A program made the translations under genes and the position numbers. A stretch of 40,885 nucleotides of DNA from a virus. Positions 89 to 24,948 of the stretch are shown one piece after another. The notes under the pieces are model-generated. The model made no database searches. It saw only the letters and a list, made by a program, of their open reading frames with translations, and was not told where the DNA came from. The stretch is from UHGV virus genome UHGV-0869933; one strand, given 5' to 3'. The stretch's first letter is position 1, and the number at the start of each line of letters is the position of its first letter.

Positions 89-431
89 CTCTGCCACTAC
101 CTCCGGACACCTCCGGCAGCGTCGGGTCCGGCATATCACTCGCCGCTTCACGAGCAGACTTTTGTCGATGGCATTCGGTACAGAGCGTCCAGAGATTCGT
201 CTCCTCATTACCACCACCGAACTGAAGTGCAATTCGGTGATCGAGTTCACTGTCACAGAGGTCAACCACACGACCACAGAGACGGCACTGCCCGGCGTCC
301 CTGAGCCAGATATGACGCTTGAGGGAAACACGTGCACTGCCACTGACACGACGCTGTTCACCCTTCAGAATATTCACCCGTCGGGTATTCAGTGTTTTGA
401 TTCTGCTCTGGAGTGTACGAAGCTCAGCCAT
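57..431 (-). CDS. HNH endonuclease
   Basis: 124 aa with CxxC ... DH ... N ... CxxCH spacing typical of HNH nucleases; last 10 codons lie inside the left inverted repeat; HNH genes commonly sit next to cos/terminase in HK97-like and lambdoid phages. Confidence 0.7.
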   Translation of the reverse strand: MAELRTLQSRIKTLNTRRVNILKGEQRRVSGSARVSLKRHIWLRDAGQCRLCGRVVDLCDSELDHRIALQFGGGNEETNLWTLCTECHRQKSAREAASDMPDPTLPEVSGGSGRARLTLPGCTE

Positions 432-472
432 GTAAAATCCCCGTCATATGGCAATCAGTAAAGGAAATAAAT

Positions 473-673
473 ATGTCATCGAAAAACCGTACCCGCAGAA
501 CCACAACCCGCAATATCCGTTTCCCCAATCACATGATTGAACAGATCAACATCGCCCTTGAGCATAAAGGGTCCGGTAACTTTTCAGCGTGGGTTATTGA
601 AGCCTGCAGGAGAAGGCTGGCAACAGATGCAACGCATCTGCGCCCGGCCAGCATGACAAATAACGAGAAATGA
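473..673 (+). CDS. Small ribbon-helix-helix-like DNA-binding protein (YlcI/DUF3950-like)
   Basis: 66-aa ORF from an internal ATG with AGGA-type RBS about 8 nt upstream; basic N-terminus followed by NIRFPNHMIEQINIALE, an RHH-like signature; divergent from the HNH gene. Confidence 0.5.
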   Translation: MSSKNRTRRTTTRNIRFPNHMIEQINIALEHKGSGNFSAWVIEACRRRLATDATHLRPASMTNNEK

Positions 674-739
674 ACGTTCGGTTACAGGAGCAGGTACCCA
701 CTGTCCTCCAACAATATTTCATCTTCATATCCGACAGAA

Positions 740-827
740 CAAGACTTACCCTGCCGGGATGTACAGAATAACAACAGAGTGATAATTAATTTCTGATGAA
801 ATAATCAGGGTGCAGAAGGACTAAAGA
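740..827. repeat. Right copy of the 88-bp perfect inverted repeat
   Basis: Exact reverse complement of 1-88; overlaps the last 7 codons and stop of the 805-1146 gene. Confidence 0.9.
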
Positions 828-1146
828 TAAACGTTTTCTTCACGCCTTTACACGGCCTGTCCTTCTCAAATCGCCATTTTGCCATCGCCTTTACAACCTG
901 CTCATCAAACAGATGGTGCGGCTCTGAACGAATAAACTCAATTCGGGTGACAGTACCATCAGCACCAATATCAAACCTCACATCAACCCGTCCCTTTATA
1001 TAATTTGCCGCTGCATAGGCCGGATATTGTGGTAATGCCTTAACCAACTGTCGGGGCATATCTGTTTTATGTTGCGTACAGCCCATAACCAGAGAAGACA
1101 ACAAAATAATTAACGGAAGATTTCTTTTCATTTTCATTCCCCGCAC
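805..1146 (-). CDS. Lipoprotein with TonB C-terminal-like domain, at the bor position downstream of Rz
   Basis: N-terminal signal with lipobox-like LVMGC; C-terminal region (YPAYAAANYIKGRVDVRFDIGADGTVTRIEF ... AMAKWRF) resembles TonB_C; start may be the GTG at 1146 or the ATG at 1137. Confidence 0.6.
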   Translation of the reverse strand: MRGMKMKRNLPLIILLSSLVMGCTQHKTDMPRQLVKALPQYPAYAAANYIKGRVDVRFDIGADGTVTRIEFIRSEPHHLFDEQVVKAMAKWRFEKDRPCKGVKKTFIFSPSAP

Positions 1147-1147
1147 A

Positions 1148-1167
1148 GATAAGAATAAGTCTTATTC
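1148..1167. promoter_or_regulatory. Fur-box-like palindrome immediately 5' of the TonB-C lipoprotein gene
   Basis: GATAAGAATAAGTCTTATTC contains a perfect 8-bp inverted repeat (AGAATAAG/CTTATTCT) and resembles the GATAAT-hexamer Fur consensus; function is inferred only. Confidence 0.3.
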
Positions 1168-1469
1168 TAACAATGCCGCCCTGTCGGTCATCAATCCTCT
1201 GCTTAATGGCAACGACAATTATCCGACTTAAATCACAAATCAGACACATGACATAACAGGGCTTGCGAGGTAACACATCGTCCTGTTTCTTCCACCATCG
1301 CACCGGACTGGCGACTATGAGGGGACAACGCCGCGCTCCGTTAACGCGGTAAACCCCGGTGTGTATCGTTTTTGATTATCCCCGCACACTCGCGCAGAGG
1401 AGTCTCCCTGTCGGGCTGCGGTCTCTGTTAATGAGGGAATACAGCGACGATACGGCGCATCAGCAAAAC

Positions 1470-1937
1470 TTAGTTCAGGCACTGAGTGCGGATATAGTCC
1501 TGTGCCCCTTCCAGCTGCTTCTGCATTGTCATCAACCGTTCTCTGAGGATGAAATAATCCCGTTCAGCGGTGTCTGCCAGTCGGGGGCCGGTTGCATTAT
1601 CCACGCCGGAGGTGCCGGTGGCTTCACGCACTGTACCGGAGCAGGTGGCGTTGATCCGCAGGCGCTTACGACCAGCGGCAACATCAGCACGCAGAGTTTC
1701 ATTTTCAGCTCTCGCATCGGCTAATTCCCTCGAGTATCTGGCATCAAGTTCAGCGACATCACGCTGGCGTATCTGCATATCAGTAATTGTCGCGTTCGCC
1801 AGTTTCAGCTCACTGACTTTTTTATCGCGCTGCGCTTTGTAGGTGATGGCGTTATCGCGGTAATGATTCAGCCCCAGACTAAGCACACCACAGGCTACCA
1901 GCAGGACAATAATCACCACACACAGAACACGGTTCAT
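1470..1937 (-). CDS. Rz: Rz i-spanin
   Basis: From [17 protein letters not shown]: N-terminal TM then coiled-coil periplasmic domain closely matching lambda Rz ([16 protein letters not shown] ... TAERDYF ... MQKQLEG); the track ORF extends upstream of the real start. Confidence 0.9.
1532..1717 (-). CDS. Rz1: Rz1 o-spanin lipoprotein, embedded in Rz in the +1 frame
   Basis: [53 protein letters not shown] matches lambda Rz1 (lipobox, proline-rich); classic embedded architecture. Confidence 0.85.
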
Positions 1938-1938
1938 A

Positions 1939-2025
1939 TCACCACCAACGGATTGCCCAGACCAGAACAGCAATGGCCACAATACGAATGGCAAATGCCA
2001 TTGCCCGAATAAGTTCAGCACTCAT
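1939..2025 (-). CDS. Tiny hydrophobic ORF (28 aa), fourth of four between endolysin and Rz
   Basis: My translation: [28 protein letters not shown]; stop lies 1 nt before the Rz ATG; weak RBS; below the track length cut-off. Confidence 0.25.
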
Positions 2026-2036
2026 CTTTTTAAAGT

Positions 2037-2162
2037 TCACGATTTCAGCGCAATGACCAGTTTTGCCAGCCCATACAGCATCGGAGACACAGCAATACCA
2101 ACAGCCACCCACTTAATAGCAAAAGCCAGCGCTCTGCTGATGTCATCAGTCACTGTCACCCC
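2037..2162 (-). CDS. Tiny hydrophobic ORF (about 41 aa, GTG start)
   Basis: VTVTDDISRALAFAIKWVAVGIAVSPMLYGLAKLVIALKS; the GTG start overlaps the upstream stop as GTGA; single predicted TM helix. Confidence 0.3.
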   Translation of the reverse strand, partial: GVTVTDDISRALAFAIKWVAVGIAVSPMLYGLAKLVIALKS

Positions 2163-2287
2163 AGCAGCCCCGACGAAGACAACATCACCCAGGCGAGGGA
2201 CAGAAAAAGAGCAACCAGCATTAGTGAAAATGAAATACCGACAATCACACACAGGACCTTTGCCGGCGTTATGAGTTTGTCTGACAT
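2159..2287 (-). CDS. Tiny hydrophobic ORF (42 aa)
   Basis: MSDKLITPAKVLCVIVGISFSLMLVALFLSLAWVMLSSSGLLG; good RBS (AAGGGG, 6 nt spacing); single TM helix. Confidence 0.4.
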
Positions 2288-2289
2288 AG

Positions 2290-2385
2290 CTACCCCTTAA
2301 TTGCCACAATTAACTGGGATACTACCCATAAAAAAGGGATGCTCCAGACCAGCAAAAATTTCCAGTTTGGTAATTGACTAATCAT
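2290..2385 (-). CDS. Tiny hydrophobic ORF (31 aa)
   Basis: MISQLPNWKFLLVWSIPFLWVVSQLIVAIKG; RBS AGGGAG about 11 nt upstream; stop 2 nt before the next ORF. Confidence 0.35.
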   Translation of the reverse strand: MISQLPNWKFLLVWSIPFLWVVSQLIVAIKG

Positions 2386-2450
2386 GAGTCGCAACTCCCT
2401 AATCAGTTTGCTAAAATCAATCAAGGCAGCCTCCCATAGCTTACTGCCAT

Positions 2451-2490
2451 AAAAACAAAACCCCGCTTGCTGCCAACAAACGGGGTTTTT
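2451..2490 (-). terminator. Intrinsic terminator-like hairpin downstream of the endolysin
   Basis: CCCCG-15 nt loop-CGGGG with flanking A-run and T-run, giving a U-tract on either strand. Confidence 0.6.
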
Positions 2491-2579
2491 ACTTTTATTC
2501 ACTTACATTTTGCCAGTTCGCAGGATTTCGTGTTATCCGTCCGCCTTGGCCAACGTCATTGATTAGCAAAATATTCTGC

Positions 2580-3113
2580 TTATCTGTCGATTCCCCAGCA
2601 CGCCAGCGCGCTCTCCTGGTCACGACGGGATACCTGACCGTAACAGTTATTTGAGCGAATACGGCAGTCTCTGCCACCGTCCTTAATCCACCAGCGAATC
2701 GCCTCACACGCTCCCCTGCGATCACCTGCATTAATTCGTTTATAAAACGTCGACGGAAAACACTTACCGGGGCCAATGTTGTACGGACAGAATGACGCGA
2801 TCCCCGCTTTCTGGGGTTCACTCAATGGCACTCTGATGTTTTTCTCCACCCATGCCAGCGCCTTATCACGCTCAATGGCGTTAACCCGGTCGCATTTTTC
2901 CTTCGACAACTTCATGCCCGGAACGACAGGTTTGCCATCCACCAGGATGGCACCGCGGCAGATGGTCCAGATACCCGCGCCATCACGGTATGCCGTGGTG
3001 TGGTTACCTTCCTTTTCATCCAGAAACTGGTCGAGAATGTCAGGCGCAGGCGCACCAGCGGCAATCAGCGCCAGAACGGCAGCCGACAGGCCGTATCTGA
3101 TTTTTGCGTTCAT
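2580..3113 (-). CDS. R: SAR endolysin (phage lysozyme, P21/P1-Lyz type)
   Basis: 177 aa; N-terminal weakly hydrophobic Gly/Ala-rich signal-anchor-release segment (GLSAAVLALIAAGA); E-x8-D-x5-T catalytic spacing (EGNHTTAYRDGAGIWT) of T4-lysozyme-like SAR endolysins. Confidence 0.9.
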   Translation of the reverse strand: MNAKIRYGLSAAVLALIAAGAPAPDILDQFLDEKEGNHTTAYRDGAGIWTICRGAILVDGKPVVPGMKLSKEKCDRVNAIERDKALAWVEKNIRVPLSEPQKAGIASFCPYNIGPGKCFPSTFYKRINAGDRRGACEAIRWWIKDGGRDCRIRSNNCYGQVSRRDQESALACWGIDR

Positions 3114-3218
3114 GGATATTTATCAGGATTTATCGGTTTCTGAGCCCTGGATATGTTTATCAGTTCCAGCCTGTTGCCTCAGGCTGCTAACAGGTCAATA
3201 CAATCATGAGGATTATTT

Positions 3219-3491
3219 ATGGACAATAACACCATTTCTCTACAGGAGTTGCTCGACAGCATTTCCAGGCTTCGGGAAGACGTGAATACCCTTACCGTCG
3301 CCTTCTCATATCTGGCATTCTCAATTCCAAGGGAACAGATGCAATCAACGCTGGCATCAATCCAGTTTGAATCATGCAATCCCAAATGGTCTCAGGAACA
3401 ACAAGACTCTTTCAGGCGGCTTGCTGTATTACTGGATGAAAAATATGCTGGTAAAATTACCATTTCGGCGGACTCTTCAGAGAACCCGTAA
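3219..3491 (+). CDS. Hypothetical protein, opposite strand inside the lysis cassette
   Basis: 90-aa ORF with GAGGA RBS 6 nt upstream of the ATG; converges on and overlaps the 3' end of the 3457-3801 gene by 35 bp; no family recognised. Confidence 0.4.
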   Translation: MDNNTISLQELLDSISRLREDVNTLTVAFSYLAFSIPREQMQSTLASIQFESCNPKWSQEQQDSFRRLAVLLDEKYAGKITISADSSENP

Positions 3492-3801
3492 TTATTCCCG
3501 GTAGTTTTCCTCTGTAGGTTATCAACACATCCTGCGCCTCTAAAATTACGGGGCGCTTTTCCGGCGACTGCTCATCCCCTTCACATAACCCGGCAGCAAC
3601 ATCCAGGAAGACCTGTCTGATGCTCCTTCTGGCTGCTGCCTCATAAAACTCCAGCGCGGCACCTTCAACACGGTCCAGCGAGATGTCCAGGTCAAAAATT
3701 TCACCGTCAAAGCGTTTTTTGTCCCGTAACGCTAAAGTTACCGTAACTTTATTCTCAAAATTGCGGATCCCTTTCACAATCAGTTCATAGTTTTGAGTCA
3801 T
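3457..3801 (-). CDS. Hypothetical protein between holin and endolysin (position of Qin ydfR)
   Basis: 114-aa ORF starting 5 nt after the holin stop with GGGGAGAG RBS; the YdfR equivalence is by position only. Confidence 0.5.
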   Translation of the reverse strand: MTQNYELIVKGIRNFENKVTVTLALRDKKRFDGEIFDLDISLDRVEGAALEFYEAAARRSIRQVFLDVAAGLCEGDEQSPEKRPVILEAQDVLITYRGKLPGIITGSLKSPPKW

Positions 3802-3805
3802 TGAA

Positions 3806-4021
3806 TTACTCTCCCCGTGCAGCCTTACGACGGTCCTCTCTGATTTTGAAATACAGGTTAGTCAGATATGTCAGCAGCCCAAACAGCAGACTCCCCAGCA
3901 CGCCTATTGCCGCCCACTGAGACGGGGAAACCCTGTCCAGCAACTGCAGGAACCAGTAGCCCGTTCCCACCGCTGACGTGGTGTATGACACACCTGTTGT
4001 GATTTTTTCCATCTGGTACAT
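3806..4021 (-). CDS. S: Pinholin (phage 21 S-like class II holin) with dual-start motif
   Basis: [13 protein letters not shown] ... [50 protein letters not shown] closely matches S21; two Met codons (M1, M4) fit holin/antiholin dual starts; the track ORF is extended upstream. Confidence 0.85.
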
Positions 4022-4171
4022 ACCCCGTCTCCCGTTATCCGGAAGCTGACAACAATAAAAAAAGCCACCAGTTAAGTACTGATGGCTCTGATAACTCATG
4101 CAGGCATCTCAGACGACCCACTGACACTACCGGTGAGTTTAACGATACCTTCCATTTGACTGGCTCACTTT

Positions 4172-6028
4172 TTATGATGATGCTGGTGCATTTATCTCCA
4201 GCACCAGACTTTCTATCTCAACGCCATACGCTGCATTTTTGGTAATATCCGTCAGCGTCAGCGCATTCAGCCCCAGTGTCAGACTGTCTTTTATGACCTG
4301 GAATGCCGGGCCAGCCACTCCATTCAGTTTCGGAGTAACCGTGGCACTGCCGGCGGTGAACACCAGTTCCAGCGTCTGCCAGTCGTTACTGTAATTCCCG
4401 AACTCGCCCAACTTTGTGTTTCCGGCTTTCTTGTGATGCATCAGATTCAGTTTGCCGTCTGTGGTCTGGGTGAAGAACGACATCAGGAACGGGTTACCAG
4501 TCCCGGTCATCGCCACGACGTCAGGTAACGCTACATCGGTATACAGATAAATTCCCAGACCGAACTGGTTGTTGGTCAGTGCGCCTGACAGTCGAAACTT
4601 ACAGCTCAGTCTGCCACCCCGTGTCAGCAGGGAGACTGCGTCATCCACCGGATGCATCAGGGACCAGGTTTTATTGCTCTGCTTGGTAACCTTAAACACA
4701 CCATCTTCCAGCGCAACACTGCCGCCGGTGATGGTCCAGCCCTGCGCAGCAGCCTCTCCGGCTGTCGGCAGCAGGGAGACTGTACGAACGGATGTGTCAC
4801 CATCAGACGGCCCCGATGGCGTGTCGCCGCCGGGCGAGGGTTTAATCTCCGGTGCGGTACCGCTGATGAAGGCGCTGGTTCGACCAACTGCGTTCAGAAT
4901 AGCGGTTGCCAGGCGATCCGAAATAATGCCCCTGCGCGCCCATGAACTGAAATGTGTCGGACGATTTGACGATACCCAATTACCATTACTACGGGATTGC
5001 GCGCCGTAATAACCTGCATCAGCAATATCCGGGTCTTCTGCCGGTAAGTTGGTGGGCGTGTTGTTGCCGTTACCGTCGGTCATGAACGGCACAAAGAAAA
5101 CGTTGTCGCTCTCCCTGTTTTTGTACGCGCCGTAGACGGAGTCATACTGTGTGCCGTATGTGTTTTTCCAGTAATACGTCGTGTCGCCACAAATCCACGG
5201 TACAACTGCAGCACTGCCGCCATGGCACTGCGCGTTAAATCCGGAAAGGTCAGTACGGAACTGCTTCAGCATGGCCGTGAACAGGTCCGGTTGCTGTGCG
5301 TAGGTGGCAGCGCTCATGTCAAATTCGCCCTGCATCCAGCACACCGCCAGCAACACATTTTTCGGGTTCTTCTGTAATGCCGCTTTGGTGCGTGCGATCA
5401 GGTCCTGATATAACGGTTTACCCACACCCCAGCGTGCCGAATCCTGGCTGGCCCCCGTGTCCGCACTGAATGTCCCCTCCGCGCCCTGGGTGAATGCCGA
5501 ACCACCACGACAGCATGGTACCAGCAGGATCCCCGCGTTATTCGGGATATACGGAAGCAGTTTTTTGGCAATATGTAAGCCCTGGCCGACACAGCCGTAC
5601 TGCCCTTTGCTCAGGTCTGCCTTCGGATGATTCAGTGCGCTCATATCCTGAACATCATGCAGGCAGTGGTCTGCCGGAATGATGTCGTTAAATGCGCATG
5701 CTTTACCACCGGGAGTCACTGTGTTGCGACGGGCCAGTTGCTTAATGCGTGGGTGGGGCGCATCGTAAGAATCCGGAAGCGGAAGCCCTTCACCGTAAGC
5801 CATGGCATTGGATTGCCCGGCCAGTACGATGACGTAGTACCACTCCGGCTCAGTTGCACCACTGACGACCACATCACCTTCTGCTGCAATCGCCTGCATC
5901 AGGGTATAAGGGGTTATGGCCACCGGACTACCAAACGGCTGCCAGCCCTCTTTCAGTTTATGTGTCAGCTTTTCCGCAAGATCTGACGGCGACGCCGCCC
6001 TGACAACATCATAGTGTTTAAATGCCAT
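4172..6028 (-). CDS. nanS: Prophage-type sialate O-acetylesterase NanS-p (DUF1737 + SGNH/SASA esterase + C-terminal domain)
   Basis: N-terminal MAFKHYDVVRAASPSDLAEKL (DUF1737-like), GQSNA esterase motif, about 620 aa; sits between the stx-equivalent locus and the holin, as in Stx and related lambdoid phages. Confidence 0.8.
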   Translation of the reverse strand: MAFKHYDVVRAASPSDLAEKLTHKLKEGWQPFGSPVAITPYTLMQAIAAEGDVVVSGATEPEWYYVIVLAGQSNAMAYGEGLPLPDSYDAPHPRIKQLARRNTVTPGGKACAFNDIIPADHCLHDVQDMSALNHPKADLSKGQYGCVGQGLHIAKKLLPYIPNNAGILLVPCCRGGSAFTQGAEGTFSADTGASQDSARWGVGKPLYQDLIARTKAALQKNPKNVLLAVCWMQGEFDMSAATYAQQPDLFTAMLKQFRTDLSGFNAQCHGGSAAVVPWICGDTTYYWKNTYGTQYDSVYGAYKNRESDNVFFVPFMTDGNGNNTPTNLPAEDPDIADAGYYGAQSRSNGNWVSSNRPTHFSSWARRGIISDRLATAILNAVGRTSAFISGTAPEIKPSPGGDTPSGPSDGDTSVRTVSLLPTAGEAAAQGWTITGGSVALEDGVFKVTKQSNKTWSLMHPVDDAVSLLTRGGRLSCKFRLSGALTNNQFGLGIYLYTDVALPDVVAMTGTGNPFLMSFFTQTTDGKLNLMHHKKAGNTKLGEFGNYSNDWQTLELVFTAGSATVTPKLNGVAGPAFQVIKDSLTLGLNALTLTDITKNAAYGVEIESLVLEINAPASS

Positions 6029-6288
6029 GGTTCTTTCCACCATCTGAAAAATGATTCTTTAAAATACCTGACATGTAATACAGAAAAAACACAAAACCAT
6101 ACCTTAAATAAAAACCTCATCATCAAGCAGATATGCATGGATAAACTACAAGACGAGATATAAACCACCCTGCATTTAAATAAACAATAAACAACATCAG
6201 AAAAATAATTCTGCTCTATGGTTTACAATCAAAAATATCATTTATACTTTTCAGAACATCACCAGCAAGGCATAAACAAGGAAACTAA

Positions 6289-6624
6289 ATGAAGTGGATT
6301 GTGATTGATACAGTTATCCAGCCATCATGCGGAATATCTTTTTCAGTCATATGGAGTAAAATAAAATTAATAATCTGGTATCAATCGGATGCTTTCTTAC
6401 CTCCTGAAAGTATATTTACACTGACTCACACAGGCATCATGCTCAATAACAAAGTGCTACCTGTAACCATTTACAACGTAGTACCATTCAATAAAACATT
6501 ATGGAATTTAATCAAAAACAGCCAGGAATGCCCTACAAATACAGATAACGTATTGAATGAATGCTTTAATAACCGTTGCACTCTGCAAATATGTCCTTAT
6601 GGGCTAAAACAACAAAGTCCATAA
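6289..6624 (+). CDS. Hypothetical Cys-containing protein in an AT-rich island at the stx-equivalent locus
   Basis: 111-aa ORF with AAGGAAA RBS 5-6 nt upstream; strongly AT-rich relative to neighbours; opposite strand to the late operon; followed by a strong hairpin at 6660-6680. Confidence 0.4.
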
Positions 6625-6659
6625 GCAGTTTACTCACATCTGACAAAATCAATATAAAC

Positions 6660-6868
6660 AGCCCCTCCGGAGAGGGGCTGGAGAGTGGCGCTATGTGCCA
6701 TTGCATGGTGCCGGGTGCCTCCCGGTGAATTCAGTACCAGCACCTGAATCCGCGATTATCCCATATACCTACTCGCTGATTACCCCTCCGCACAGGGGGA
6801 TTCACCATGCGAAATTTTTTAACAAACTTCCCGCCGGCCAGACAATAATCGCCAGCCTGAATTATGAG
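6660..6868. repeat. Copy A of a diverged roughly 210-bp non-coding element
   Basis: Shares with copy B the hairpin AGCCCCTCCGGAGAGGGGCT, GCATGGTGCC-N-CCTCCCGGT-AATTCAG, GGGGGATTCACCATGCGA and a CCAGACAAT-ATC tail. Confidence 0.7.
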
Positions 6869-7132
6869 CAACGTGGCATTTTACGGGAAAACTGTTTTCT
6901 GCAGTAAAAAGGCCCGCCGGAGCGAGCCTGGAAGGATAGCGGTCATGTGATGCCGGTTTCCCGGTAACTCAGCATCGGTATCTGAGTCAACGTTTTCTCT
7001 ACTGGGTCATTTCCGATACGTTCCGCCTTCCGGCAGACTTTCATCACGTCAGAAAATATAGCACCCTGAGTAACAGGACAGTACTCAGAATTCAGGAAAC
7101 TGTGACACATCCTGCACAGAAAAGCCCCTCCG

Positions 7133-7347
7133 GAGAGGGGCTGAAGTATAGCCTAATTTCTGTCTGTCGCATGGTGCCAGGGGCCTCCCGGTAAATTCAG
7201 CCTGTCTACTGAATTTGCATGTTCTCTGGATCATACACTTTGCCAGATGCCCCGCCGCTGAGGGGGATTCACCATGCGATGTAATTTTTAACAAATTCTC
7301 CGGCAGCCAGACAATCATCAAGCTGTGGAATTGTGAGGTATTTAAAA
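7133..7347. repeat. Copy B of the same diverged element
   Basis: Same block order and orientation as copy A with scattered substitutions and indels; no conserved ORF across the two copies. Confidence 0.7.
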
Positions 7348-7499
7348 ATTTCAACGGGTAACTGATACCCTGCTAATCGCCTGATGCTTTCTTTTTCAGC
7401 AACGGGAAAGCAACAACCACACACCCGCCACCAAAACACCATCAGACAGCACCGACATTATCCGGCTGCTGAAGTCCACCATCACCACCAGAAACAACA

Positions 7500-7557
7500 G
7501 GAGTGCAACCACAGCTGCTTAGAAGGCAATTGCTCTGTCCGGCTGAGCTAACAACGC
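7500..7557 (-). pseudogene. tRNA-like remnant (5' half resembling tRNA-Arg UCU)
   Basis: Minus-strand GCGTTGT-TA-GCTCAGCCGGACAGAGC-A-ATTGC-CTTCTAA-GCAGC has acceptor, D-arm and anticodon loop (anticodon TCT), but no credible T-arm or 3' acceptor follows. Confidence 0.3.
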
Positions 7558-7570
7558 ATGATGCAGATAA

Positions 7571-7647
7571 TGGACCGCCATCGGGGACTTGAACCCCGCG
7601 CAGCCAGCTTCGAAGGCTGGCGCTCTATCCCGATGAGCTAATGGCGG
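7571..7647 (-). tRNA. tRNA-Arg (anticodon UCG)
   Basis: Hand-folded cloverleaf: 7-bp acceptor CCGCCAT/ATGGCGG, D-arm GCTC...GAGC, anticodon loop CTTCGAA, T-arm CGGGG-TTCAAGT-CCCCG, 3' CCA encoded. Confidence 0.8.
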
Positions 7648-7654
7648 TATGTGA

Positions 7655-7730
7655 TGGTGGCCCTTGCTGGATTTGAACCAGCGACCTGGCGATTATGAGT
7701 CGCTCGCTCTCACCACTGAGCTAAAGGGCC
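7655..7730 (-). tRNA. tRNA-Ile2/Met type (anticodon CAU), ileZ-like
   Basis: GGCCCTT-TA-GCTCAGTGGTGAGAGC-G-AGCGA-CTCATAA-TCGCC-AGGTC-GCTGG-TTCAAAT-CCAGC-AAGGGCC-A-CCA; resembles E. coli ileX and the phage ileZ. Confidence 0.8.
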
Positions 7731-7779
7731 GGAAGCAGAATAATAATGGTGCGTAATTAATTCTGCAATCTCATCCGTT

Positions 7780-8829
7780 TCAAACGATTAAATCCTGAAC
7801 TTCCCTGACTGTCTGCTCAAAACGTCCGGTCTCCAGTTCAACGCCAATCGCACGACGCCCGAGCGCCAGTGCAGCTTTTACCGTTGAACCTGAGCCCATA
7901 AAAAAATCTGCAACCAGGTCACCCGGACGACTGCTTGCGCTGATTATCTGCTGCAGCATTTCTGCCGGTTTTTCGCACGGATGTTTCCCGGGATAGAACT
8001 GCACCGGTTTATGTGTCCACACATCCGTGTACGGCACCTGCGCCGTCACACCAAAATACCGCCGCAGATGCTTATATTCACTCTGCAGCTCCACATACTG
8101 CCGGTTCAGTGACGTATACGTATCCACCAGCTGGTGGTGGGGCTTTTCCAGTTCACCGCGCTGATGTTTCTCTTCTGCCACCCGGGCAAACAGCGACTGT
8201 AATTTCAGATAATCGCTTTCGTTCGGTAGCTGCCACTGACTGGCACTGAACCAGTGCGACACCATGTTTTTCTTTCCTGTGGCATCTGCAATCTGTTTTG
8301 CCGTTATCCCCAGGGCCGCGCGCGCATCACGAAAGTAAGAAATCAGCGGGGCCATCACATGCTGTTTCAGTGCACTGCCCTTCGCCGCATACCCGGCATC
8401 TTTCGGACGATACGGCCCCTGATAATGTTCCGCGAACAGAATGCGCTCTGTGGCGGGGAAATACGCCCGCAGGCTTTCCTTGTTGCATCCGTTCCAGCGT
8501 CCGGACGGCTTCGCCCAGATAATATGGTTCAGCACACTGAAGCGTTCACGCATCATGATTTCGATATCAGATGCCAGGCGATGACCACAGAACAGGTAAA
8601 GACTTCCGACAGGTTTCAGCACCCGCCAGAACTGCGCCAGACACTGGTCCAGCCACTTCAGGTAATCATCGTCGCCCTTCCACTGGTTATCCCATCCCTC
8701 AGTCTTCACTTTAAAGTACGGCGGGTCCGTGACTATCAGGTCAACAGAATTTTCGGGTAACGACCGGATAAATTCCAGGCAGTCGGCGTTGATTAACTCA
8801 CAACTGGATATTTTTACAGTATTAAGCAT
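7780..8829 (-). CDS. Orphan DNA methyltransferase (beta-class amino-methyltransferase, N6-adenine or N4-cytosine)
   Basis: 349 aa; DPPY (motif IV) near the N-terminus and FFMGSGST (motif I) near the C-terminus; no restriction endonuclease partner nearby; sits between Q and the tRNAs as in Stx2-type phages. Confidence 0.8.
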   Translation of the reverse strand: MLNTVKISSCELINADCLEFIRSLPENSVDLIVTDPPYFKVKTEGWDNQWKGDDDYLKWLDQCLAQFWRVLKPVGSLYLFCGHRLASDIEIMMRERFSVLNHIIWAKPSGRWNGCNKESLRAYFPATERILFAEHYQGPYRPKDAGYAAKGSALKQHVMAPLISYFRDARAALGITAKQIADATGKKNMVSHWFSASQWQLPNESDYLKLQSLFARVAEEKHQRGELEKPHHQLVDTYTSLNRQYVELQSEYKHLRRYFGVTAQVPYTDVWTHKPVQFYPGKHPCEKPAEMLQQIISASSRPGDLVADFFMGSGSTVKAALALGRRAIGVELETGRFEQTVREVQDLIV

Positions 8830-8960
8830 GGATCATTAAGCCTGTCTCTGATAGGCTCATTCTGCTTTTGCGCAAAGCAGTGGGCCTGAGGTTTGCTTGT
8901 GAACCCAACGCATGAGCAGATGGCTGGTGGGTGCCCCTAACACCCACCAGCCGCCCATTT

Positions 8961-8996
8961 ACCACAAATAAAAAAGCCTTCACTGCGGAAGGCGTC
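8961..8996 (-). terminator. Intrinsic terminator-like hairpin upstream of the methyltransferase
   Basis: GCCTTC-ACTGCG-GAAGGC followed on the minus strand by TTTTTTAT. Confidence 0.5.
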
Positions 8997-9177
8997 TGTA
9001 ACAACCGAACTGATAGTCTGCCAGACCCGCCATAACCAGCTGGGTCAGTATTAACTGGCAGCGTTCGCGTGAAAGGTAAGTATTCTGCGCTATCTCCCCG
9101 ACTGTCGCCGGTTCGGTAACGCTTAATTCATTAAACACCACTCTGGCGGTTTCTGTCATATCCTGCTGTTTTAGCAT
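8980..9177 (-). CDS. Hypothetical small protein (about 65 aa) just downstream of pR'/tR'
   Basis: Internal ATG with AAGGGA RBS; the track ORF's upstream extension would run through the tR' region. Confidence 0.4.
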   Translation of the reverse strand: MLKQQDMTETARVVFNELSVTEPATVGEIAQNTYLSRERCQLILTQLVMAGLADYQFGCYRRLPQ

Positions 9178-9300
9178 GTCTTTTTCCCTTTTCCGGTTAA
9201 CGTGACACACCAATAACTCTTGTCGAAAAAGCCAGCAAGCTGAAAGACAGGTATTCACCGCCACCAGCGCGTTTACTGTACTGACGCGATTTCAGTCATA

Positions 9301-9322
9301 AAAAACCCGCCAGGCGGCGGGG
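9301..9322 (-). terminator. tR'-like intrinsic terminator downstream of the late promoter
   Basis: Minus strand CCCGCC-GCCT-GGCGGG followed by TTTTT, about 45 nt downstream of the predicted -10. Confidence 0.55.
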
Positions 9323-9370
9323 TGTAAAAAATCTTCTAACGTCAGGCATAAAACGCCCATCGTTAGAGCA

Positions 9371-9398
9371 AATTTACCACAGATTCGGGAAAAATCAA
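9371..9398 (-). promoter_or_regulatory. Late promoter pR'-like (-35 TTGATT, 16-nt spacer, -10 TAAATT) with probable qut region
   Basis: Starts 5 nt after the Q stop; the -10 and start region (TAAATTtgctctaacgATGGG) closely resemble lambda pR' as I recall it. Confidence 0.5.
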
Positions 9399-9403
9399 CA
9401 ACA

Positions 9404-10225
9404 CTATCGCGTTACCCTCTTTAACTGCCGCTCCGCCCATGCCTCTTCAATGTCAAACCGAACCACCAACGTATCGTAAAAGCGTTTCACTGATTTTTTC
9501 CACGTATCAAGCGTGATAGCACTCGTCACTTTGCATATGGCATTAAATGCCTCCGTTGATGGCAGCCTTTCACAGCCACGACCACCACAACGCTGGCAAT
9601 CTCTGATAACAGGCATACCACGTTTTACCGACTCTTCACGATGAATGGCGACACCACGCCCACGGCAATCCTTACAGGCGGTGGAAACCTCACCCTTTCC
9701 GCCACACTCCGGACAGGCAACTTTTACCACCTCCCTGACTTTTTTCCATTCTTCCCAGTAAGACGGATACACGCCTTTTGTGCACTTTGCCCACACTGGT
9801 GGCTTACCATCCGGATACTGGATCTTGTTTGTAAAAACCTCGCTTTCAATAAATTTTTTTCCGTGACAGCAGGGGCACTGTTTTTTGCTCGCCGCGCTAC
9901 GGGCATAATCTTCAAACGCATACGAAGCCATAATGCGCATCACTACCGGTTTTATTTCTGCCGGAAGTTTTCTCAACGCCGCCACACGATCGCACCGACT
10001 GAGTGCATAATCTGCCAGTAATTCTGTTGCCCGCGCCCTGTCATTCATACTGATGCCCATTTTCCCCAGGAACGCAGAAAACCCCATCTCAGCCCGATTC
10101 TGTGTCATGCCCTGCGCGGCCATCACATCAGTGATACTCAGCGCATCTTTTGACGTTGAGGCCGATGCATCGGTCAGGCCAGGGGATTTTGGGGAGTAGT
10201 ATTTCGGTAAATCTTCCAGTTTCAT
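9404..10225 (-). CDS. Q: Late antiterminator Q-like protein (zinc-binding)
   Basis: 273 aa with several CxxC pairs; sits between rusA and pR' exactly where lambdoid Q genes lie; family assignment is from context and motifs. Confidence 0.6.
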   Translation of the reverse strand: MKLEDLPKYYSPKSPGLTDASASTSKDALSITDVMAAQGMTQNRAEMGFSAFLGKMGISMNDRARATELLADYALSRCDRVAALRKLPAEIKPVVMRIMASYAFEDYARSAASKKQCPCCHGKKFIESEVFTNKIQYPDGKPPVWAKCTKGVYPSYWEEWKKVREVVKVACPECGGKGEVSTACKDCRGRGVAIHREESVKRGMPVIRDCQRCGGRGCERLPSTEAFNAICKVTSAITLDTWKKSVKRFYDTLVVRFDIEEAWAERQLKRVTR

Positions 10226-10596
10226 TTTTTGACCTGCTCTTCATGCATTATGGGGTAAATCTTCACCCCCAGACGTCCACCAGATACTGGCTGACCACGA
10301 ACGATATTGATTTCATCAAACTGCTCATCGTCCATTAACACTCCCGCATGCGTCAGCGCATCCAGCGGTGCTTTCAGGATATTGTCCAGGTCGCGACGAC
10401 GCTTATCCGGTGGCTCTGCAATCACCTTTATCGCCAGCCTTCCGGACAGGCTTAATTTCAGCCGCTGCTGGCGAACAATAAGCGCCACAGCCCGGCGATA
10501 ACGCTTTCCCTCCTCCGAGATAAAATATGTGCTGCCACGGCGTCGCCAGTAAGTGTTCACCGTCGGCGGGTAAGGTAAAACCAAATCTATGAGCAT
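10222..10596 (-). CDS. rusA: Holliday junction resolvase RusA
   Basis: 124 aa; LPYPPTVNTYWRRRG ... PDKRRRDLDNILKAPLDAL matches the RusA signature; ATGA overlap with Q. Confidence 0.85.
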   Translation of the reverse strand: MLIDLVLPYPPTVNTYWRRRGSTYFISEEGKRYRRAVALIVRQQRLKLSLSGRLAIKVIAEPPDKRRRDLDNILKAPLDALTHAGVLMDDEQFDEINIVRGQPVSGGRLGVKIYPIMHEEQVKK

Positions 10597-10608
10597 CAGT
10601 CACCTCTT

Positions 10609-11655
10609 TTACCCAAGCACGCCAGTTGCAAAGGCGTGATCAAGAAAACGAAAAATTAAATCAACCTGAGAACCATGCTTTTCTTCGAACGCCAGAGGAT
10701 CCGCATGAAGCTCGTTGTGATGCTCCCGACACAGCGGTAGCGTGAAAATATCGTGAGATTTTGTCCCCATTCCGCCCTGACCATGACCAATCAGGTGATG
10801 GGGATCGTCGGCTGGCTTACCACAACACGCACACGGCTGTGTCTTCACCCAGCGTGTGTATTTCTCGTTAACCCAGCGGCGACGTTTAGGTCGTTTCATG
10901 AAAGATTCCGGAGACTCAGGATCAACGGCAATGCTGACCACCGTCTCTTCCTGTGGCGGGTTTTGCTGGTGGGCGTGAGGCAGCGGCGCAAGATTTTTTG
11001 TGCGCTGCTTCAGTATGCTGGTGGCGGTCTGCTCTCCCGGTACGATGTCGCTTTCACGGTACATTGAGCGGATTTTTTCCGCACGCAACCCCAGCGAACG
11101 ACGTAATACCGCTTCCGGTAGCGCGTCCACCACCTGATTGCGGACCGCCCACCAGGATAATTCAGCCAGCGATAATTCCCGTTCCTGCGAGCCATTCATT
11201 GCATGGCGTATGACGTCAATCATCCATGCAGACAGGTTTTGGTGAGCAAGTTGCCCGAGTGATTCGGAGGTCTGGTCGCGCAGCTGGTTGTCGCAGTGCC
11301 AGCACAACACCATTGCGCCGGTACCATAACGGTGAATGACGGTTTCACTGTGGTGATAATCGCCGTGTGGCCACTGGCAGGATTTAACATGGCGCAGTAA
11401 CCAGTCAGACAATGCGCCAGCGCCACCAGCAGCACGAATCACTCGTTCGTCGCTGAAAAATGGCAGTAATGATTTATCCTCCGCCAGCGGCTGGCGAACG
11501 GCAGGAACGACCCCGGACGACAGATTACGCATGCTTTTCGGTTCCGGCTCCACCAGTACCCGGGTATTGTGGAATACTGGCATGGATTCACGGCCCGGCT
11601 TAACGATCACCAGCCCGAGTTCCGGTACCAGAACAGGTCGAAGTAATACCCGCAC
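10609..11655 (-). CDS. DUF968-family nin-region protein (YdfU-like) with C-terminal HNH-like zinc motif
   Basis: 348 aa, same size and position as Qin YdfU; C-terminal CACCGKPADDPHHL ... CREHHNELH. Confidence 0.65.
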   Translation of the reverse strand: MRVLLRPVLVPELGLVIVKPGRESMPVFHNTRVLVEPEPKSMRNLSSGVVPAVRQPLAEDKSLLPFFSDERVIRAAGGAGALSDWLLRHVKSCQWPHGDYHHSETVIHRYGTGAMVLCWHCDNQLRDQTSESLGQLAHQNLSAWMIDVIRHAMNGSQERELSLAELSWWAVRNQVVDALPEAVLRRSLGLRAEKIRSMYRESDIVPGEQTATSILKQRTKNLAPLPHAHQQNPPQEETVVSIAVDPESPESFMKRPKRRRWVNEKYTRWVKTQPCACCGKPADDPHHLIGHGQGGMGTKSHDIFTLPLCREHHNELHADPLAFEEKHGSQVDLIFRFLDHAFATGVLG

Positions 11656-11656
11656 G

Positions 11657-11935
11657 TTACCTCCAGATGCGTTGCTGGAATGTGCGGGACGGACGCGGTG
11701 GGCGTTCAGAGTAAGGAAGCCTGACGGAGATTATCCAGTGACGATAATCGAGGCTGAGGGCTTTCTTAATCTCGTATCCGTGTCTGCGGTAGCACTGAAT
11801 TAGCCATTCAGCTTGTTCTTCAGTACATGGGGGATGCTGGTACCAATCAGATTTGAATGTGCGGGAACGCCGCCCGTGCCTGCTGGCAAAGACAGCTGAA
11901 TTATCAGAATTGTGTGATTTGGTATTGTGCGCCAT
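11657..11935 (-). CDS. Hypothetical nin-region protein (about 92 aa)
   Basis: Starts MAHNTKSH at an internal ATG; the track ORF's upstream extension overlaps the terminator hairpin at 12014-12037. Confidence 0.45.
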   Translation of the reverse strand: MAHNTKSHNSDNSAVFASRHGRRSRTFKSDWYQHPPCTEEQAEWLIQCYRRHGYEIKKALSLDYRHWIISVRLPYSERPPRPSRTFQQRIWR

Positions 11936-12013
11936 CGTCTTTCTCTGCTGGCGCAGCAGGTGCCAGTTGTTCAGGCTGACGTGCGAATTGTAAACCTGAA
12001 TGCCAAGAAAAAA

Positions 12014-13449: not shown

Positions 13450-13605
13450 TTACTCCTCAGGTTCGTAAGCTGTGAAGACAGCGACCTCCGTCTGGCCGGT
13501 TCGGATTCGTACCTCGCAGAGGTCTTTCCTCGTTACCAGTGCCGTCACAATGACGGTTAAACAGATGACGATCAGGGCGATTAGCATCGCCTTTTGCTGC
13601 TTCAT
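13450..13605 (-). CDS. hokD: Hok/Gef-family type I toxin (HokD/RelF-like)
   Basis: MKQQKAMLIALIVICLTVIVTALVTRKDLCEVRIRTGQTEVAVFTAYEPEE matches the Qin HokD (RelF) sequence as I recall it; the track ORF carries a mok-like upstream extension. Confidence 0.85.
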   Translation of the reverse strand: MKQQKAMLIALIVICLTVIVTALVTRKDLCEVRIRTGQTEVAVFTAYEPEE

Positions 13606-13886
13606 AGCCTGCTTCTCCTTGCCTTTCGGCACGTAAGAGGCTAACCTACGTGTGTAGAGCATAGATATGGCCTCAGATTAATGTTAAGCGTCTTGCCGGA
13701 CGCGTAATGTTAACTGGGGCTTTTCTCTATCTGCCTTTTGGTGTTCATGCCTGAGACAGATAGCCTCAAGCACCCGCTGCAATTCTACTTAACTCTCCTT
13801 TTCCCGCAAACCGTTTTTATCCCCAGCGGCAAATCGAATACACCACCAGCGCCACCGCCATCGCAATTCCTACCGTTGTTAATGCT

Positions 13887-21496: not shown

Positions 21497-21555
21497 TTTC
21501 TGGTGACGTTTGGCGGTATCAGTTTTACTCCGTGACTGCTCTGCCGCCCTTTTTA
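21497..21555 (+). ncRNA. dicF: DicF small regulatory RNA
   Basis: TTTCTGGTGACGTTTGGCGGTATCAGTTTTACTCCGTGACTGCTCTGCCGCCCTTTTT matches the E. coli DicF sequence as I recall it; lies immediately upstream of dicB. Confidence 0.8.
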
Positions 21556-24699: not shown

Positions 24700-24948
24700 A
24701 TGGCAAGACTTATTCTGCTCACTGAGTGGGCAAAAGAGGAATTCAGTGAACCGGTCCCTACTCCGAGTACGTTAAGTAAATACGCTAAAGCCGGAATGAT
24801 ATTTCCTCTCCCCAAAAAAGTTGGAAGACGCTGGCGAGTGGATCCGCAAGCTCGCTTTGTCGGAATGGTAAACAAGCCGGAGGTGATCGCCACAGATCAC
24901 CCTGCTTTGAAGAGGATACTGGAAGATGGCGCGCCCGCGAAAATATAA
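24700..24948 (+). CDS. xis: Excisionase-like DNA-binding protein
   Basis: 82-aa basic protein immediately upstream of int, overlapping it by 23 bp. Confidence 0.55.
   Translation: MARLILLTEWAKEEFSEPVPTPSTLSKYAKAGMIFPLPKKVGRRWRVDPQARFVGMVNKPEVIATDHPALKRILEDGAPAKI

What the first reader, a model, noticed from the sequence alone, without database searches (positions are those of the whole stretch)
6044..6650. AT-rich, opposite-strand cargo gene at the position where Stx phages carry stxAB
The late region follows the Stx-phage layout (Q, methyltransferase, ileZ/arg tRNAs, cargo, nanS-p, lysis) but holds no toxin genes. The cargo slot instead contains an AT-rich island with a 111-aa ORF on the plus strand (6289-6624). 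That ORF has a canonical RBS, a plausible upstream promoter and a strong hairpin immediately downstream. The protein has an odd hydrophobic N-terminus and a C-terminal four-Cys cluster and matches no family I recognise. This locus is a known hotspot for virulence and fitness morons.
Basis: partly seen in the sequence, partly recalled or inferred. Interest (0 to 1): 0.6.

Follow-up and report, generated by a model that had tools for sequence, protein, structure and literature searches.

The report
Known RpoS-stabilising gene iraL in prophage
The AT-rich "mystery" gene is iraL, an already characterised small protein that blocks the adaptor RssB so that the stress sigma factor RpoS is not degraded; it is carried by about a quarter of complete E. 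coli genomes, so the finding is real but ordinary.

Summary
The sequence features are real. There is a 628-bp island of 32.6% GC (6029-6656) and an intact 111-aa ORF (6289-6624, + strand), with an RBS, a promoter and four C-terminal cysteines. It lies between the Q/methylase/tRNA block and nanS-p of a lambdoid prophage. The claim that it matches no family is wrong. The protein is 110/111 identical to IraL of uropathogenic E. coli CFT073, an experimentally characterised RssB anti-adaptor that stabilises RpoS in log phase. It passes the NCBIfam IraM model and has the IraM fold of PDB 8TWD. The 5'-RACE start site published for CFT073 iraL maps to window 6256. The gene occurs in 1446 of 5426 complete E. 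coli genomes. Every context I sampled has the same arrangement.

Two corrections follow. The "strong hairpin" is the terminator of a convergent STnc100-family sRNA (6650-6838, minus strand), not a dedicated iraL terminator. The gene also does not sit in the stx slot itself but in the adjacent one. Stx2c phages carry stx2c, the STnc100 module and a 75%-identical iraM-like gene side by side.

One overlooked detail remains. The Cys4 motif is invariant across 31 diverged family representatives, yet it was cut from the crystallised construct.

Verdict: already known, low interest.

The parts
6029..6656 (.). AT-rich iraL island (32.6% GC), bounded on the left by the nanS-p start codon and on the right by the STnc100 terminator hairpin
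   Evidence: Composition. Boundaries come from alignments with VT1-Sakai and Stx2a phages, which lack the island, and with Stx2c phage 1717, which has a diverged version at the same junctions.
6222..6248 (+). iraL sigma-70 promoter: -35-like TTTACA (6222-6227), 15-nt spacer, -10 TATACT (6243-6248)
   Evidence: Read directly from the sequence. Both hexamers are identical in CFT073, where the paper assigns a sigma-70 promoter (PMC4045071). The consensus scanner missed it because it only allows 16-18 nt spacers.
6256..6288 (+). Transcription start (6256) and 33-nt 5' UTR with the RBS AAGGA at 6278-6282
   Evidence: The published 5'-RACE sequence for CFT073 iraL mRNA matches window 6256-6287 at 31 of 32 nt. 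The UTR is predicted to be unstructured.
6289..6624 (+). iraL coding sequence (111 aa plus stop): RssB anti-adaptor with a PmrD-like beta-barrel (1-78) and a Cys4 tail (81-102)
6650..6838 (-). STnc100-family sRNA gene, copy 1, convergent with iraL; its terminator stem is the hairpin 6659-6680
   Evidence: Rfam RF02076 scores 132.5 bits against a gathering score of 47. The terminator-like call is on the minus strand. The module is shared with Stx1 and Stx2 phages.
6903..7078 (-). Degenerate STnc100-like copy, below the gathering score
   Evidence: Rfam gives 30 bits, E=6e-4. The hairpin repeat 6907-6933 is 74% identical to the reference copy at 6657-6683.
7114..7307 (-). STnc100-family sRNA gene, copy 2
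   Evidence: Rfam RF02076 scores 138 bits. Direct repeats D1-D4 lie about 467 bp from copy 1.
7571..7730 (-). Phage tRNA pair: tRNA-Arg(TCG) 7571-7647 and tRNA with CAT anticodon 7655-7730, annotated tRNA-Ile by PGAP in the 99%-identical NCCP15648 locus
7780..8829 (-). DNA methyltransferase of the late-region leader
   Evidence: PF01555, E=1.9e-44.
9404..10225 (-). Q-type antiterminator, which drives late transcription towards and antisense to iraL
   Evidence: PF03589, E=2e-49.
4172..6028 (-). nanS-p sialate O-acetylesterase; its start codon abuts the island
   Evidence: DUF1737+SASA+DUF6645. PGAP places the start at 6028 in the near-identical locus.

Best explanation
The ORF is iraL, a prophage-borne paralogue of iraM. 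It is transcribed from its own sigma-70 promoter, starting at window 6256. Its orientation is opposite to the Q-dependent late operon, so it is expressed in the lysogen without prophage induction. The 111-aa cytoplasmic protein folds into a PmrD-like beta-barrel and binds the response-regulator-type adaptor RssB. RssB can then no longer hand sigma-S (RpoS) to ClpXP. As a result RpoS is stabilised during exponential growth and the general stress response is pre-armed. This is a lysogenic-conversion function.

Shown in the literature for the 99%-identical CFT073 allele: the transcription start site, roughly a doubling of RpoS half-life in log phase, complementation with the native promoter, and RssB binding by two-hybrid and pulldown.

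Shown here: identity with IraL, family membership, fold, conservation of RssB-contact residues and of the promoter, and the conserved prophage context.

Inferred: that this particular allele is expressed and active in its (unidentified) host strain.
For: NCBIfam NF007393 'anti-adapter protein IraM' scores 162.4 bits against a cutoff of 121, covering residues 1-110. PDB 8TWD (IraM 1-78 bound to RssB) matches at E=2.5e-32. Identity to K-12 IraM is 63%. Identity to CFT073 IraL is 110/111 aa and 334/336 nt, and the upstream 100 nt plus UTR differ at only 3 positions. The published 5'-RACE start matches window 6256.

Functional data for IraL come from PMC4045071. Later papers report that IraL levels rise in CFT073 lacking Fur and that iraL mRNA rises on a shift to 37 C.

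The ORF is found in 1446 of 5426 complete E. coli genomes, and all 40 sampled rows are annotated as anti-adapter protein IraM (one, AR_0058, is an IS1-disrupted partial copy). The same Q-tRNA-DUF3927-STnc100-iraL-nanS-p-holin order occurs in CFT073, NCCP15648, O104:H4 2009EL-2050, AR_0114 and AR_0058.
Against: No experiment exists on this exact allele or strain, and the source strain could not be identified. The window allele differs from CFT073 by L71 versus F71 and by three SNPs in the promoter spacer, at position -1 and in the UTR (6228, 6255, 6286); their effect is untested. The -35/-10 spacer is only 15 nt. The AT-rich island could be H-NS silenced under some conditions; that possibility is my own inference and was not tested. 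In two-hybrid assays IraL bound only the RssB N-terminal domain, unlike IraM, so the IraM co-crystal may not describe IraL binding exactly. The current Pfam-A copy gave no hit, although the precomputed annotation lists PF11183 (PmrD) for all homologues.
Confidence: 0.92

Rival explanations
1. The gene mainly serves the phage rather than the host. By raising RpoS it would tune lysogen physiology, for example the induction threshold, survival of the lysogen or timing of lysis. Its convergent arrangement with STnc100 and the late transcript would shut it off by transcriptional interference when Q antitermination fires.
For: IraM-like genes of 59-75% identity occupy the same opposite-strand position between Q and nanS-p in several different lambdoid prophage lineages, including Stx2c and Stx2a phages and an E. 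albertii prophage. That pattern suggests long-term retention by the phage module. iraL ends 25 nt from the 3' end of a convergent sRNA and lies antisense to the late operon.
Against: No data link IraL to induction or lysis. Published phenotypes are host RpoS levels. A distant family member sits in a non-prophage chromosomal context. This rival is not exclusive of the main explanation, because the molecular mechanism would be the same.
Confidence: 0.15
2. This copy is a silent or decaying passenger. The ORF is intact but is not expressed, because of promoter SNPs or H-NS silencing of the AT-rich island, and it contributes nothing in this strain.
For: Three SNPs separate it from the characterised CFT073 promoter/UTR. 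The paper itself notes that some iraL copies carry promoter mutations of unknown effect. At least one genome has iraL split by IS1. GC is very low.
Against: The -35 and -10 hexamers, the start-site region and the RBS are intact and identical to CFT073. At least 20 complete genomes are 100% identical across the full 657-bp query (6044-6700), and 798 records have a best match of >=99% identity. The ORF is intact in 39 of the 40 sampled genomes. The only coding differences from CFT073 are one conservative substitution (L71F) and one synonymous change.
Confidence: 0.07
3. It is a PmrD-type connector that acts on a response regulator other than RssB, for example by protecting phospho-PmrA.
Against: Identity to PmrD is only 13-19%. 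The sequence is 99% IraL, which binds RssB experimentally. RssB-contact residues are conserved.
Confidence: 0.03
4. It is a novel secreted or membrane-targeted cysteine-rich effector or toxin-like cargo that stands in for Shiga toxin. This is the reading implied by the first reader.
For: The N-terminal third is moderately hydrophobic, with a Kyte-Doolittle mean of about 0.7-1.1 over 19-residue windows. There is a Cys cluster, and the location is a virulence-moron hotspot.
Against: Residues 2-33 are predicted with high confidence as three beta-strands of a soluble barrel that superposes on crystallised IraM. D7 interrupts the hydrophobic run, there is only one basic residue at the N-terminus, and no cleavage-site-like motif is visible by eye. 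The partner RssB is cytoplasmic. Family membership is unambiguous.
Confidence: 0.01

Closest known systems
IraL of uropathogenic E. coli CFT073 (c1429; Hryckowian et al. 2014, mBio, PMC4045071)
   Same: 110/111 aa and 334/336 nt are identical. The promoter hexamers, mapped start site and RBS are the same. The orientation is the same, as are the neighbours in a lambdoid prophage late region: Q, tRNA-Ile/Arg, DUF3927, STnc100 module, iraL, DUF1737/nanS-p, holin.
   Different: The window has L71 where CFT073 has F71. Three SNPs lie in the promoter spacer, at -1 and in the UTR. The window prophage has a full-length nanS-p and a methylase downstream of Q, whereas the CFT073 potB prophage has a truncated nanS-p and an IS200 there.
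IraM of E. coli K-12 (b1160; crystal structure 8TWD with RssB)
   Same: Same family model, same PmrD-like barrel, same Cys4 tail. Identity is 63%, and 11 of 14 RssB-contact residues are identical.
   Different: The upstream region shows no recognisable similarity in the pairwise alignment. iraM is induced by Mg2+ starvation (PMC3877760; PMC10844676), whereas IraL acts in unstressed log phase. IraM binds both RssB domains, whereas IraL bound only the N-terminal domain in two-hybrid. K-12 iraM lies next to the e14 element, not in a Q-nanS-p interval.
IraM-like gene of Stx2c/Stx2a-converting phages (e.g. phage 1717 gp43, phage 2851)
   Same: Same slot and orientation, between the STnc100-type hairpin and the nanS-p start codon. 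The island is AT-rich, identity is 75% aa, and the Cys4 motif is present.
   Different: It is a distinct subtype, 107 aa long and 65% identical to K-12 IraM. It is co-resident with stx2AB immediately upstream. I know of no functional study of it.
PmrD connector proteins (PDB 4HN7, 2RQX, 2JSO)
   Different: Identity is 13-19%. The partner is PmrA, not RssB. The solved chains are 81-88 residues long, too short to hold the C-terminal Cys4 extension.
stxAB and other late-region morons of lambdoid phages
   Same: Same Q-to-lysis hotspot, and foreign base composition.
   Different: stxAB lies on the late strand and depends on pR'/Q read-through (regulatory features annotated in VT1-Sakai). iraL lies on the opposite strand with its own promoter, in the neighbouring slot on the nanS-p side of the STnc100 module.

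Membership tests
IraM/IraL/RssC anti-adaptor family (NCBIfam NF007393) | Whole-protein score above the curated cutoff of the family HMM | tested here: met
   162.4 bits against a cutoff of 121, E=3.5e-48, residues 1-110 on profile positions 1-113 of 114.
IraM/IraL/RssC anti-adaptor family | PmrD-like antiparallel beta-barrel plus helix for residues 1-78, as in crystallised IraM | tested here: met
IraM/IraL/RssC anti-adaptor family | Conservation of the IraM residues that contact RssB (I4, I6, W22, K26, I42; T13, C14, F18, W30; I61, Y62, H63, I64; P66) | tested here: met
   11 of 14 are identical; the other three are T13S, H63N and I64V (ungapped alignment; residue list).
IraM/IraL/RssC anti-adaptor family | C-terminal C-x(8-12)-C-x(3-5)-C-x4-C motif (defined here from the family alignment, not from the literature) | tested here: met
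   C81, C92, C97 and C102 are present. The motif is found in all 31 cluster representatives.
IraM/IraL/RssC anti-adaptor family | Binds RssB and slows RssB/ClpXP-dependent RpoS degradation | not testable with these tools
   Shown experimentally for the 99%-identical CFT073 protein (PMC4045071), but not for this allele.
IraL subtype (as defined operationally by Hryckowian et al.) | >=95% nucleotide identity over 100% of the CFT073 iraL coding region, and >=96% identity of the promoter/upstream region | tested here: met
   334/336 nt in the CDS. There are 3 differences between -100 and the ATG. The -35 and -10 hexamers and the start-site sequence are conserved.
IraM sensu stricto (K-12 type, Mg2+-starvation-induced) | >=95% identity to K-12 iraM and a homologous promoter region | tested here: not met
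   63% aa identity. The upstream regions show no recognisable similarity in the pairwise alignment. A PhoP-box pattern search gave only chance-level matches in the window: 9 found against 9.3 expected. There is one 1-mismatch site at 6177-6193 in reverse orientation. The PGAP label 'IraM' is therefore a family-level name.
PmrD family (Pfam PF11183) | Significant match to the Pfam PmrD model | tested here: inconclusive
   hmmscan against the current Pfam-A copy gave no family even at E<=10, both for this protein and for K-12 IraM. The precomputed table lists PF11183.15 for the homologues. Fold similarity is clear.
STnc100 sRNA family (Rfam RF02076), for the hairpin-bearing element next to the ORF | Covariance-model score above the gathering threshold over the full model | tested here: met
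   6650-6838(-) scores 132.5 bits and 7114-7307(-) scores 138 bits against a gathering score of 47, covering model positions 1-206.
Shiga-toxin cargo slot of Stx phages | Insertion at the same junction as stxAB, between the tR'/tRNA region and the STnc100-type module, on the late strand | tested here: not met
   In VT1-Sakai and phage 1717, stx lies on the Q side of the module. The iraL/iraM-like island lies on the nanS-p side, on the opposite strand, and coexists with stx2c.

The most novel reading that the evidence does not exclude
They are the most invariant positions of the whole IraM/IraL family across 31 representatives down to 21% identity. The only crystal structure removed this tail and described it as less conserved and flexible. 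The motif could be a structural zinc knuckle or a redox- or metal-sensitive switch that controls the stability or activity of the anti-adaptor. That would add a post-translational input to RpoS control. It might also explain why IraL and IraM differ in how they engage RssB.
Probability: 0.35. Interest if true: 0.4.

Novelty: already known. Interest (0 to 1): 0.13.

Why it matters
As a discovery it does not matter much. iraL was named and characterised in 2014 and is annotated, under the family name IraM, in more than a thousand genomes.

Three things are still useful. First, raw-sequence scans should expect this anti-adaptor island next to nanS-p in lambdoid prophages. Second, the hotspot contains at least two separate cargo slots, separated by an STnc100-family sRNA; some Stx2 phages carry both a toxin and an RpoS-stabiliser, which could bear on stress tolerance of STEC lysogens. 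Third, the invariant Cys4 tail of the family has no assigned function and could be tested cheaply.

Tried and rejected
Pfam-A scans at E<=0.1 and E<=10 returned nothing for this protein or for K-12 IraM. NCBIfam, the PDB sequence search and the genome annotations resolved the identity instead.

The sigma-70 consensus scan did not find the real promoter, because its spacer is 15 nt. Its four hits are at chance level: 4 found against 3.7 expected.

A PhoP-box search, done because K-12 iraM is PhoP-dependent (my recollection of Bougdour et al. 2008, not checked here), was at chance level in the window. I do not claim PhoP control.

I first assumed the window was E. coli NCCP15648, from a 100% match over 6044-6700. 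blastn then showed colinearity only for 89-11978, and no complete genome covers more than 72% of 5000-29999. The source is unknown, and annotation transfer is used only within about 89-11978.

AF2 with a 13-sequence alignment left the tail at pLDDT below 50. With 31 sequences the tail reached only 58-71. Model coordinates are not exposed, so Cys-Cys distances could not be measured.

The signal-peptide or secreted-effector reading was rejected on fold and family grounds. A dedicated iraL terminator was rejected because there is no U-tract after the stem on the + strand and the stem belongs to the STnc100 model.

Full report
OBSERVATION. The + strand carries an intact 111-codon ORF at 6289-6624. 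It lies inside a 628-bp island (6029-6656) of 32.6% GC. The whole window is 50.3% GC and the adjacent nanS-p gene is 55.1%. The island is the lowest-GC 600-nt stretch in the window. An ATG-ORF this long arose in only 5 of 2000 shuffles of the island. An AAGGA Shine-Dalgarno sequence sits 6 nt before the ATG. TATACT (6243-6248) and TTTACA (6222-6227) form a promoter with a short 15-nt spacer. A 9-bp GC-rich hairpin lies at 6659-6680. The protein has cysteines at 14, 81, 92, 97 and 102. The surrounding minus-strand layout is as described. It runs from a Q antiterminator (PF03589) through a DNA methylase (PF01555), two tRNAs and a DUF1737/SASA/DUF6645 esterase (nanS-p) to the holin and lysozyme. 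No toxin ORF is present.

IDENTITY. The statement that the protein matches no family does not hold. NCBIfam NF007393 ('anti-adapter protein IraM') scores 162.4 bits against a curated cutoff of 121. A sequence search of the PDB finds IraM in entry 8TWD at E=2.5e-32. Megablast shows that PGAP annotates the ORF as 'anti-adapter protein IraM' in every listed genome. The protein is 63% identical to K-12 IraM. It is 110/111 identical to the protein encoded at 1343465-1343800 of CFT073, which is c1429, or IraL.

Hryckowian et al. (mBio 2014, PMC4045071) identified IraL in a screen for regulators of sigma-S and mapped its mRNA 5' end by RACE. The published sequence ACATCACCAGCAAGGCATAAACAAGGAAACCA matches window 6256-6287 with one mismatch. 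They showed that deleting iraL halves the sigma-S half-life in log phase in CFT073 and lowers sigma-S in Shigella sonnei. The gene with 100 nt of native upstream sequence raised sigma-S in K-12. IraL bound RssB in two-hybrid and pulldown assays. Their operational criteria for iraL are >=95% identity over the CDS and >=96% over the promoter. The window meets both: 334/336 nt in the CDS, and three SNPs upstream at 6228, 6255 and 6286, none inside the -35 or -10 hexamers.

MECHANISM. The best-supported mechanism is the published one. IraL is made from its own sigma-70 promoter in the uninduced lysogen. It binds RssB and prevents delivery of sigma-S to ClpXP, which raises sigma-S during exponential growth. 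For IraM the structure shows occlusion of the 4-5-5 face of the receiver domain and remodelling of the interdomain linker. For IraL the two-hybrid pattern differs, with binding to the N-terminal domain only, so the details may differ. Expression and activity of this particular allele are inferred, not shown.

THE HAIRPIN. The hairpin is not a dedicated terminator of the ORF. It is one of three repeated copies, at 6657, 6907 and 7120. All three score as intrinsic terminators on the minus strand, where a U-run follows the stem. On the + strand no U-tract follows. Rfam assigns 6650-6838(-) and 7114-7307(-) to the STnc100 sRNA family at 132.5 and 138 bits, against a gathering score of 47. A degenerate third copy lies at 6903-7078. 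STnc100 is a known prophage-associated sRNA related to PasD (bioRxiv 10.64898/2026.05.13.724894). iraL is thus convergent with an sRNA gene whose 3' end lies 25 nt beyond its stop codon. The palindromic stem may still stabilise or partly terminate the iraL mRNA, but that is inference.

POSITION RELATIVE TO STX. Only 6654-6700, the start of the STnc100 module, matches Stx phages at the DNA level. In VT1-Sakai the late-strand order is Q, pR'/tR', stx1A, stx1B, this module, about 225 bp, then nanS-p. In the window the roughly 225 bp between module and nanS-p are replaced by the 628-bp iraL island. The left edge of the island is exactly the nanS-p start codon. A protein-level search then showed that 41 of the 46 matching phage records carry a 60-80%-identical iraM-like gene (73.6% in most listed rows). 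Most of these are Stx2c- or Stx2-converting phages such as 1717, 2851 and the Stx2a_WGPS series. In phage 1717 that gene lies on the opposite strand between stx2cB and nanS-p, at the same two junctions as the window's island. The anti-adaptor slot is therefore adjacent to the toxin slot and compatible with it. It is not the same slot filled with alternative cargo.

Further subtypes occupy the same Q-to-nanS-p interval in other lambdoid prophages. These include a 59%-identical E. coli variant and a 67%-identical E. albertii variant. A distant homologue from Intestinirhabdus alba is chromosomal and not prophage-linked.

DISTRIBUTION. The ORF is found in 1446 of 5426 complete E. coli genomes, with up to three copies per genome. 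1440 genomes cover at least 80% of it, and 905 have a best match of >=99% identity. The same gene order holds in every genome whose context I examined: CFT073, NCCP15648, O104:H4 2009EL-2050, AR_0114 and AR_0058. One copy, in AR_0058, is split by IS1. That criterion is clearly not met: the gene is real.

WHAT IS LEFT THAT IS NOT IN THE LITERATURE I COULD SEARCH. A profile search of 1.84 billion cluster representatives found 94 relatives, 48 of them at E<=1e-10. The named ones come from Salmonella, Citrobacter, Enterobacter, Kosakonia, Dryocola, Intestinirhabdus and Franconibacter. In an alignment of 31 full-length representatives, 21-64% identical to IraL, the invariant positions are M1, P12, W72, C81, C97 and C102. 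C92 and P103 are conserved in 30 of 31 sequences. Every sequence has a C-x(8-12)-C-x(3-5)-C-x4-C motif. The IraM structure paper removed residues 79-107 as proteolytically unstable. It describes the tail as less conserved and flexible and does not mention cysteine or zinc in this context. The intervening residues are indeed variable, but the four cysteines are the best-conserved feature of the family. That points to a zinc knuckle or a redox-sensitive element. AF2 gives the tail only pLDDT 58-71, and I could not inspect coordinates. This remains a hypothesis.

VERDICT. The object is the already characterised gene iraL in its usual prophage setting. Novelty is 'already known' and interest is low. 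The source strain is not in the complete-genome collection. The window is colinear with NCCP15648 only over 89-11978, and no genome covers more than 72% of 5000-29999.

Noticed in passing
window 6650-6838(-), 7114-7307(-), 6903-7078(-): There are two full-length copies and one degenerate copy of the STnc100-family sRNA between the phage tRNAs and iraL, arranged as roughly 467-bp direct repeats. In the near-identical NCCP15648 locus, PGAP places a partial 'hypothetical protein' pseudogene (6695-6820, +) on top of copy 1, which is probably a mis-annotation of the sRNA.
   Followed up: partly
L007:6001-6324 (Stx2-converting phage 1717, NC_011357.1 26252-26575); 41 of 46 phage records: Stx2c- and some Stx2a-converting phages carry an iraM-like gene directly between stx2B and nanS-p, on the opposite strand. 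It is 75% identical to IraL and 65% identical to K-12 IraM. These toxin phages may therefore also stabilise RpoS. I found no functional study of this subtype.
   Followed up: partly
window 6529-6594 (codons 81-102 of the ORF); alignment A6: The C-terminal C-x(8-12)-C-x(3-5)-C-x4-C motif is present in all 31 diverged family representatives (C81, C97 and C102 in 31/31; C92 in 30/31). It lies in the tail that was deleted for the IraM-RssB crystal structure.
   Followed up: partly
The precomputed Pfam table labels all IraM/IraL homologues PF11183 (PmrD). A live hmmscan of this protein and of K-12 IraM against the current Pfam-A copy returns no family even at E<=10. The discrepancy is unresolved.
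   Followed up: partly
L010:4501-5613 (E. coli AR_0058, NZ_CP021689.1): In this genome iraL is split by an IS1A insertion after about codon 59, an example of natural inactivation.
   Followed up: no
window 13600-13775(-) and 21498-21549(+): Rfam hits above gathering score were found for the sok antitoxin RNA (117 bits) and for DicF sRNA (76.7 bits) in the early region of the same prophage.
   Followed up: no
window 805-1131(-): A small ORF, annotated by PGAP as 'TonB family protein' in the 99%-identical NCCP15648 locus, lies between the lysis cassette and the HNH/terminase genes. Its N-terminus looks lipoprotein-like (MKMKRNLPLIILLSSLVMGC). It may be another moron.
   Followed up: no
window 3219-3491(+): A 90-aa ORF on the opposite strand lies inside the lysis cassette and overlaps the 3' end of the YdfR-family gene (3457-3801, -). 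PGAP annotates it as a hypothetical protein in related genomes.
   Followed up: no
window 24926-26056 (+) and 26675-40649 (-): The prophage ends with an integrase-sized ORF (24926-26056). That ORF falls in the stretch matching the NCCP15648 exonuclease/excisionase/integrase region at 96.5% identity. Beyond it, large minus-strand ORFs match phage tail genes of NCCP15648 (tail fibre, Lom, J, minor tail proteins) at only 79-88% identity, which suggests a second, adjacent prophage or remnant. The J-like reading frame is split into two ORFs (31226-32332 and 32329-34698). The junction region, about 26000-27000, is AT-rich (33-37% GC).
   Followed up: no
whole window: No complete E. coli genome in the collection is colinear with the window. 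The best covers 72% of 5000-29999, and NCCP15648 matches only 89-11978 at 99.3%. The prophage is a mosaic and the source strain is not identified.
   Followed up: partly
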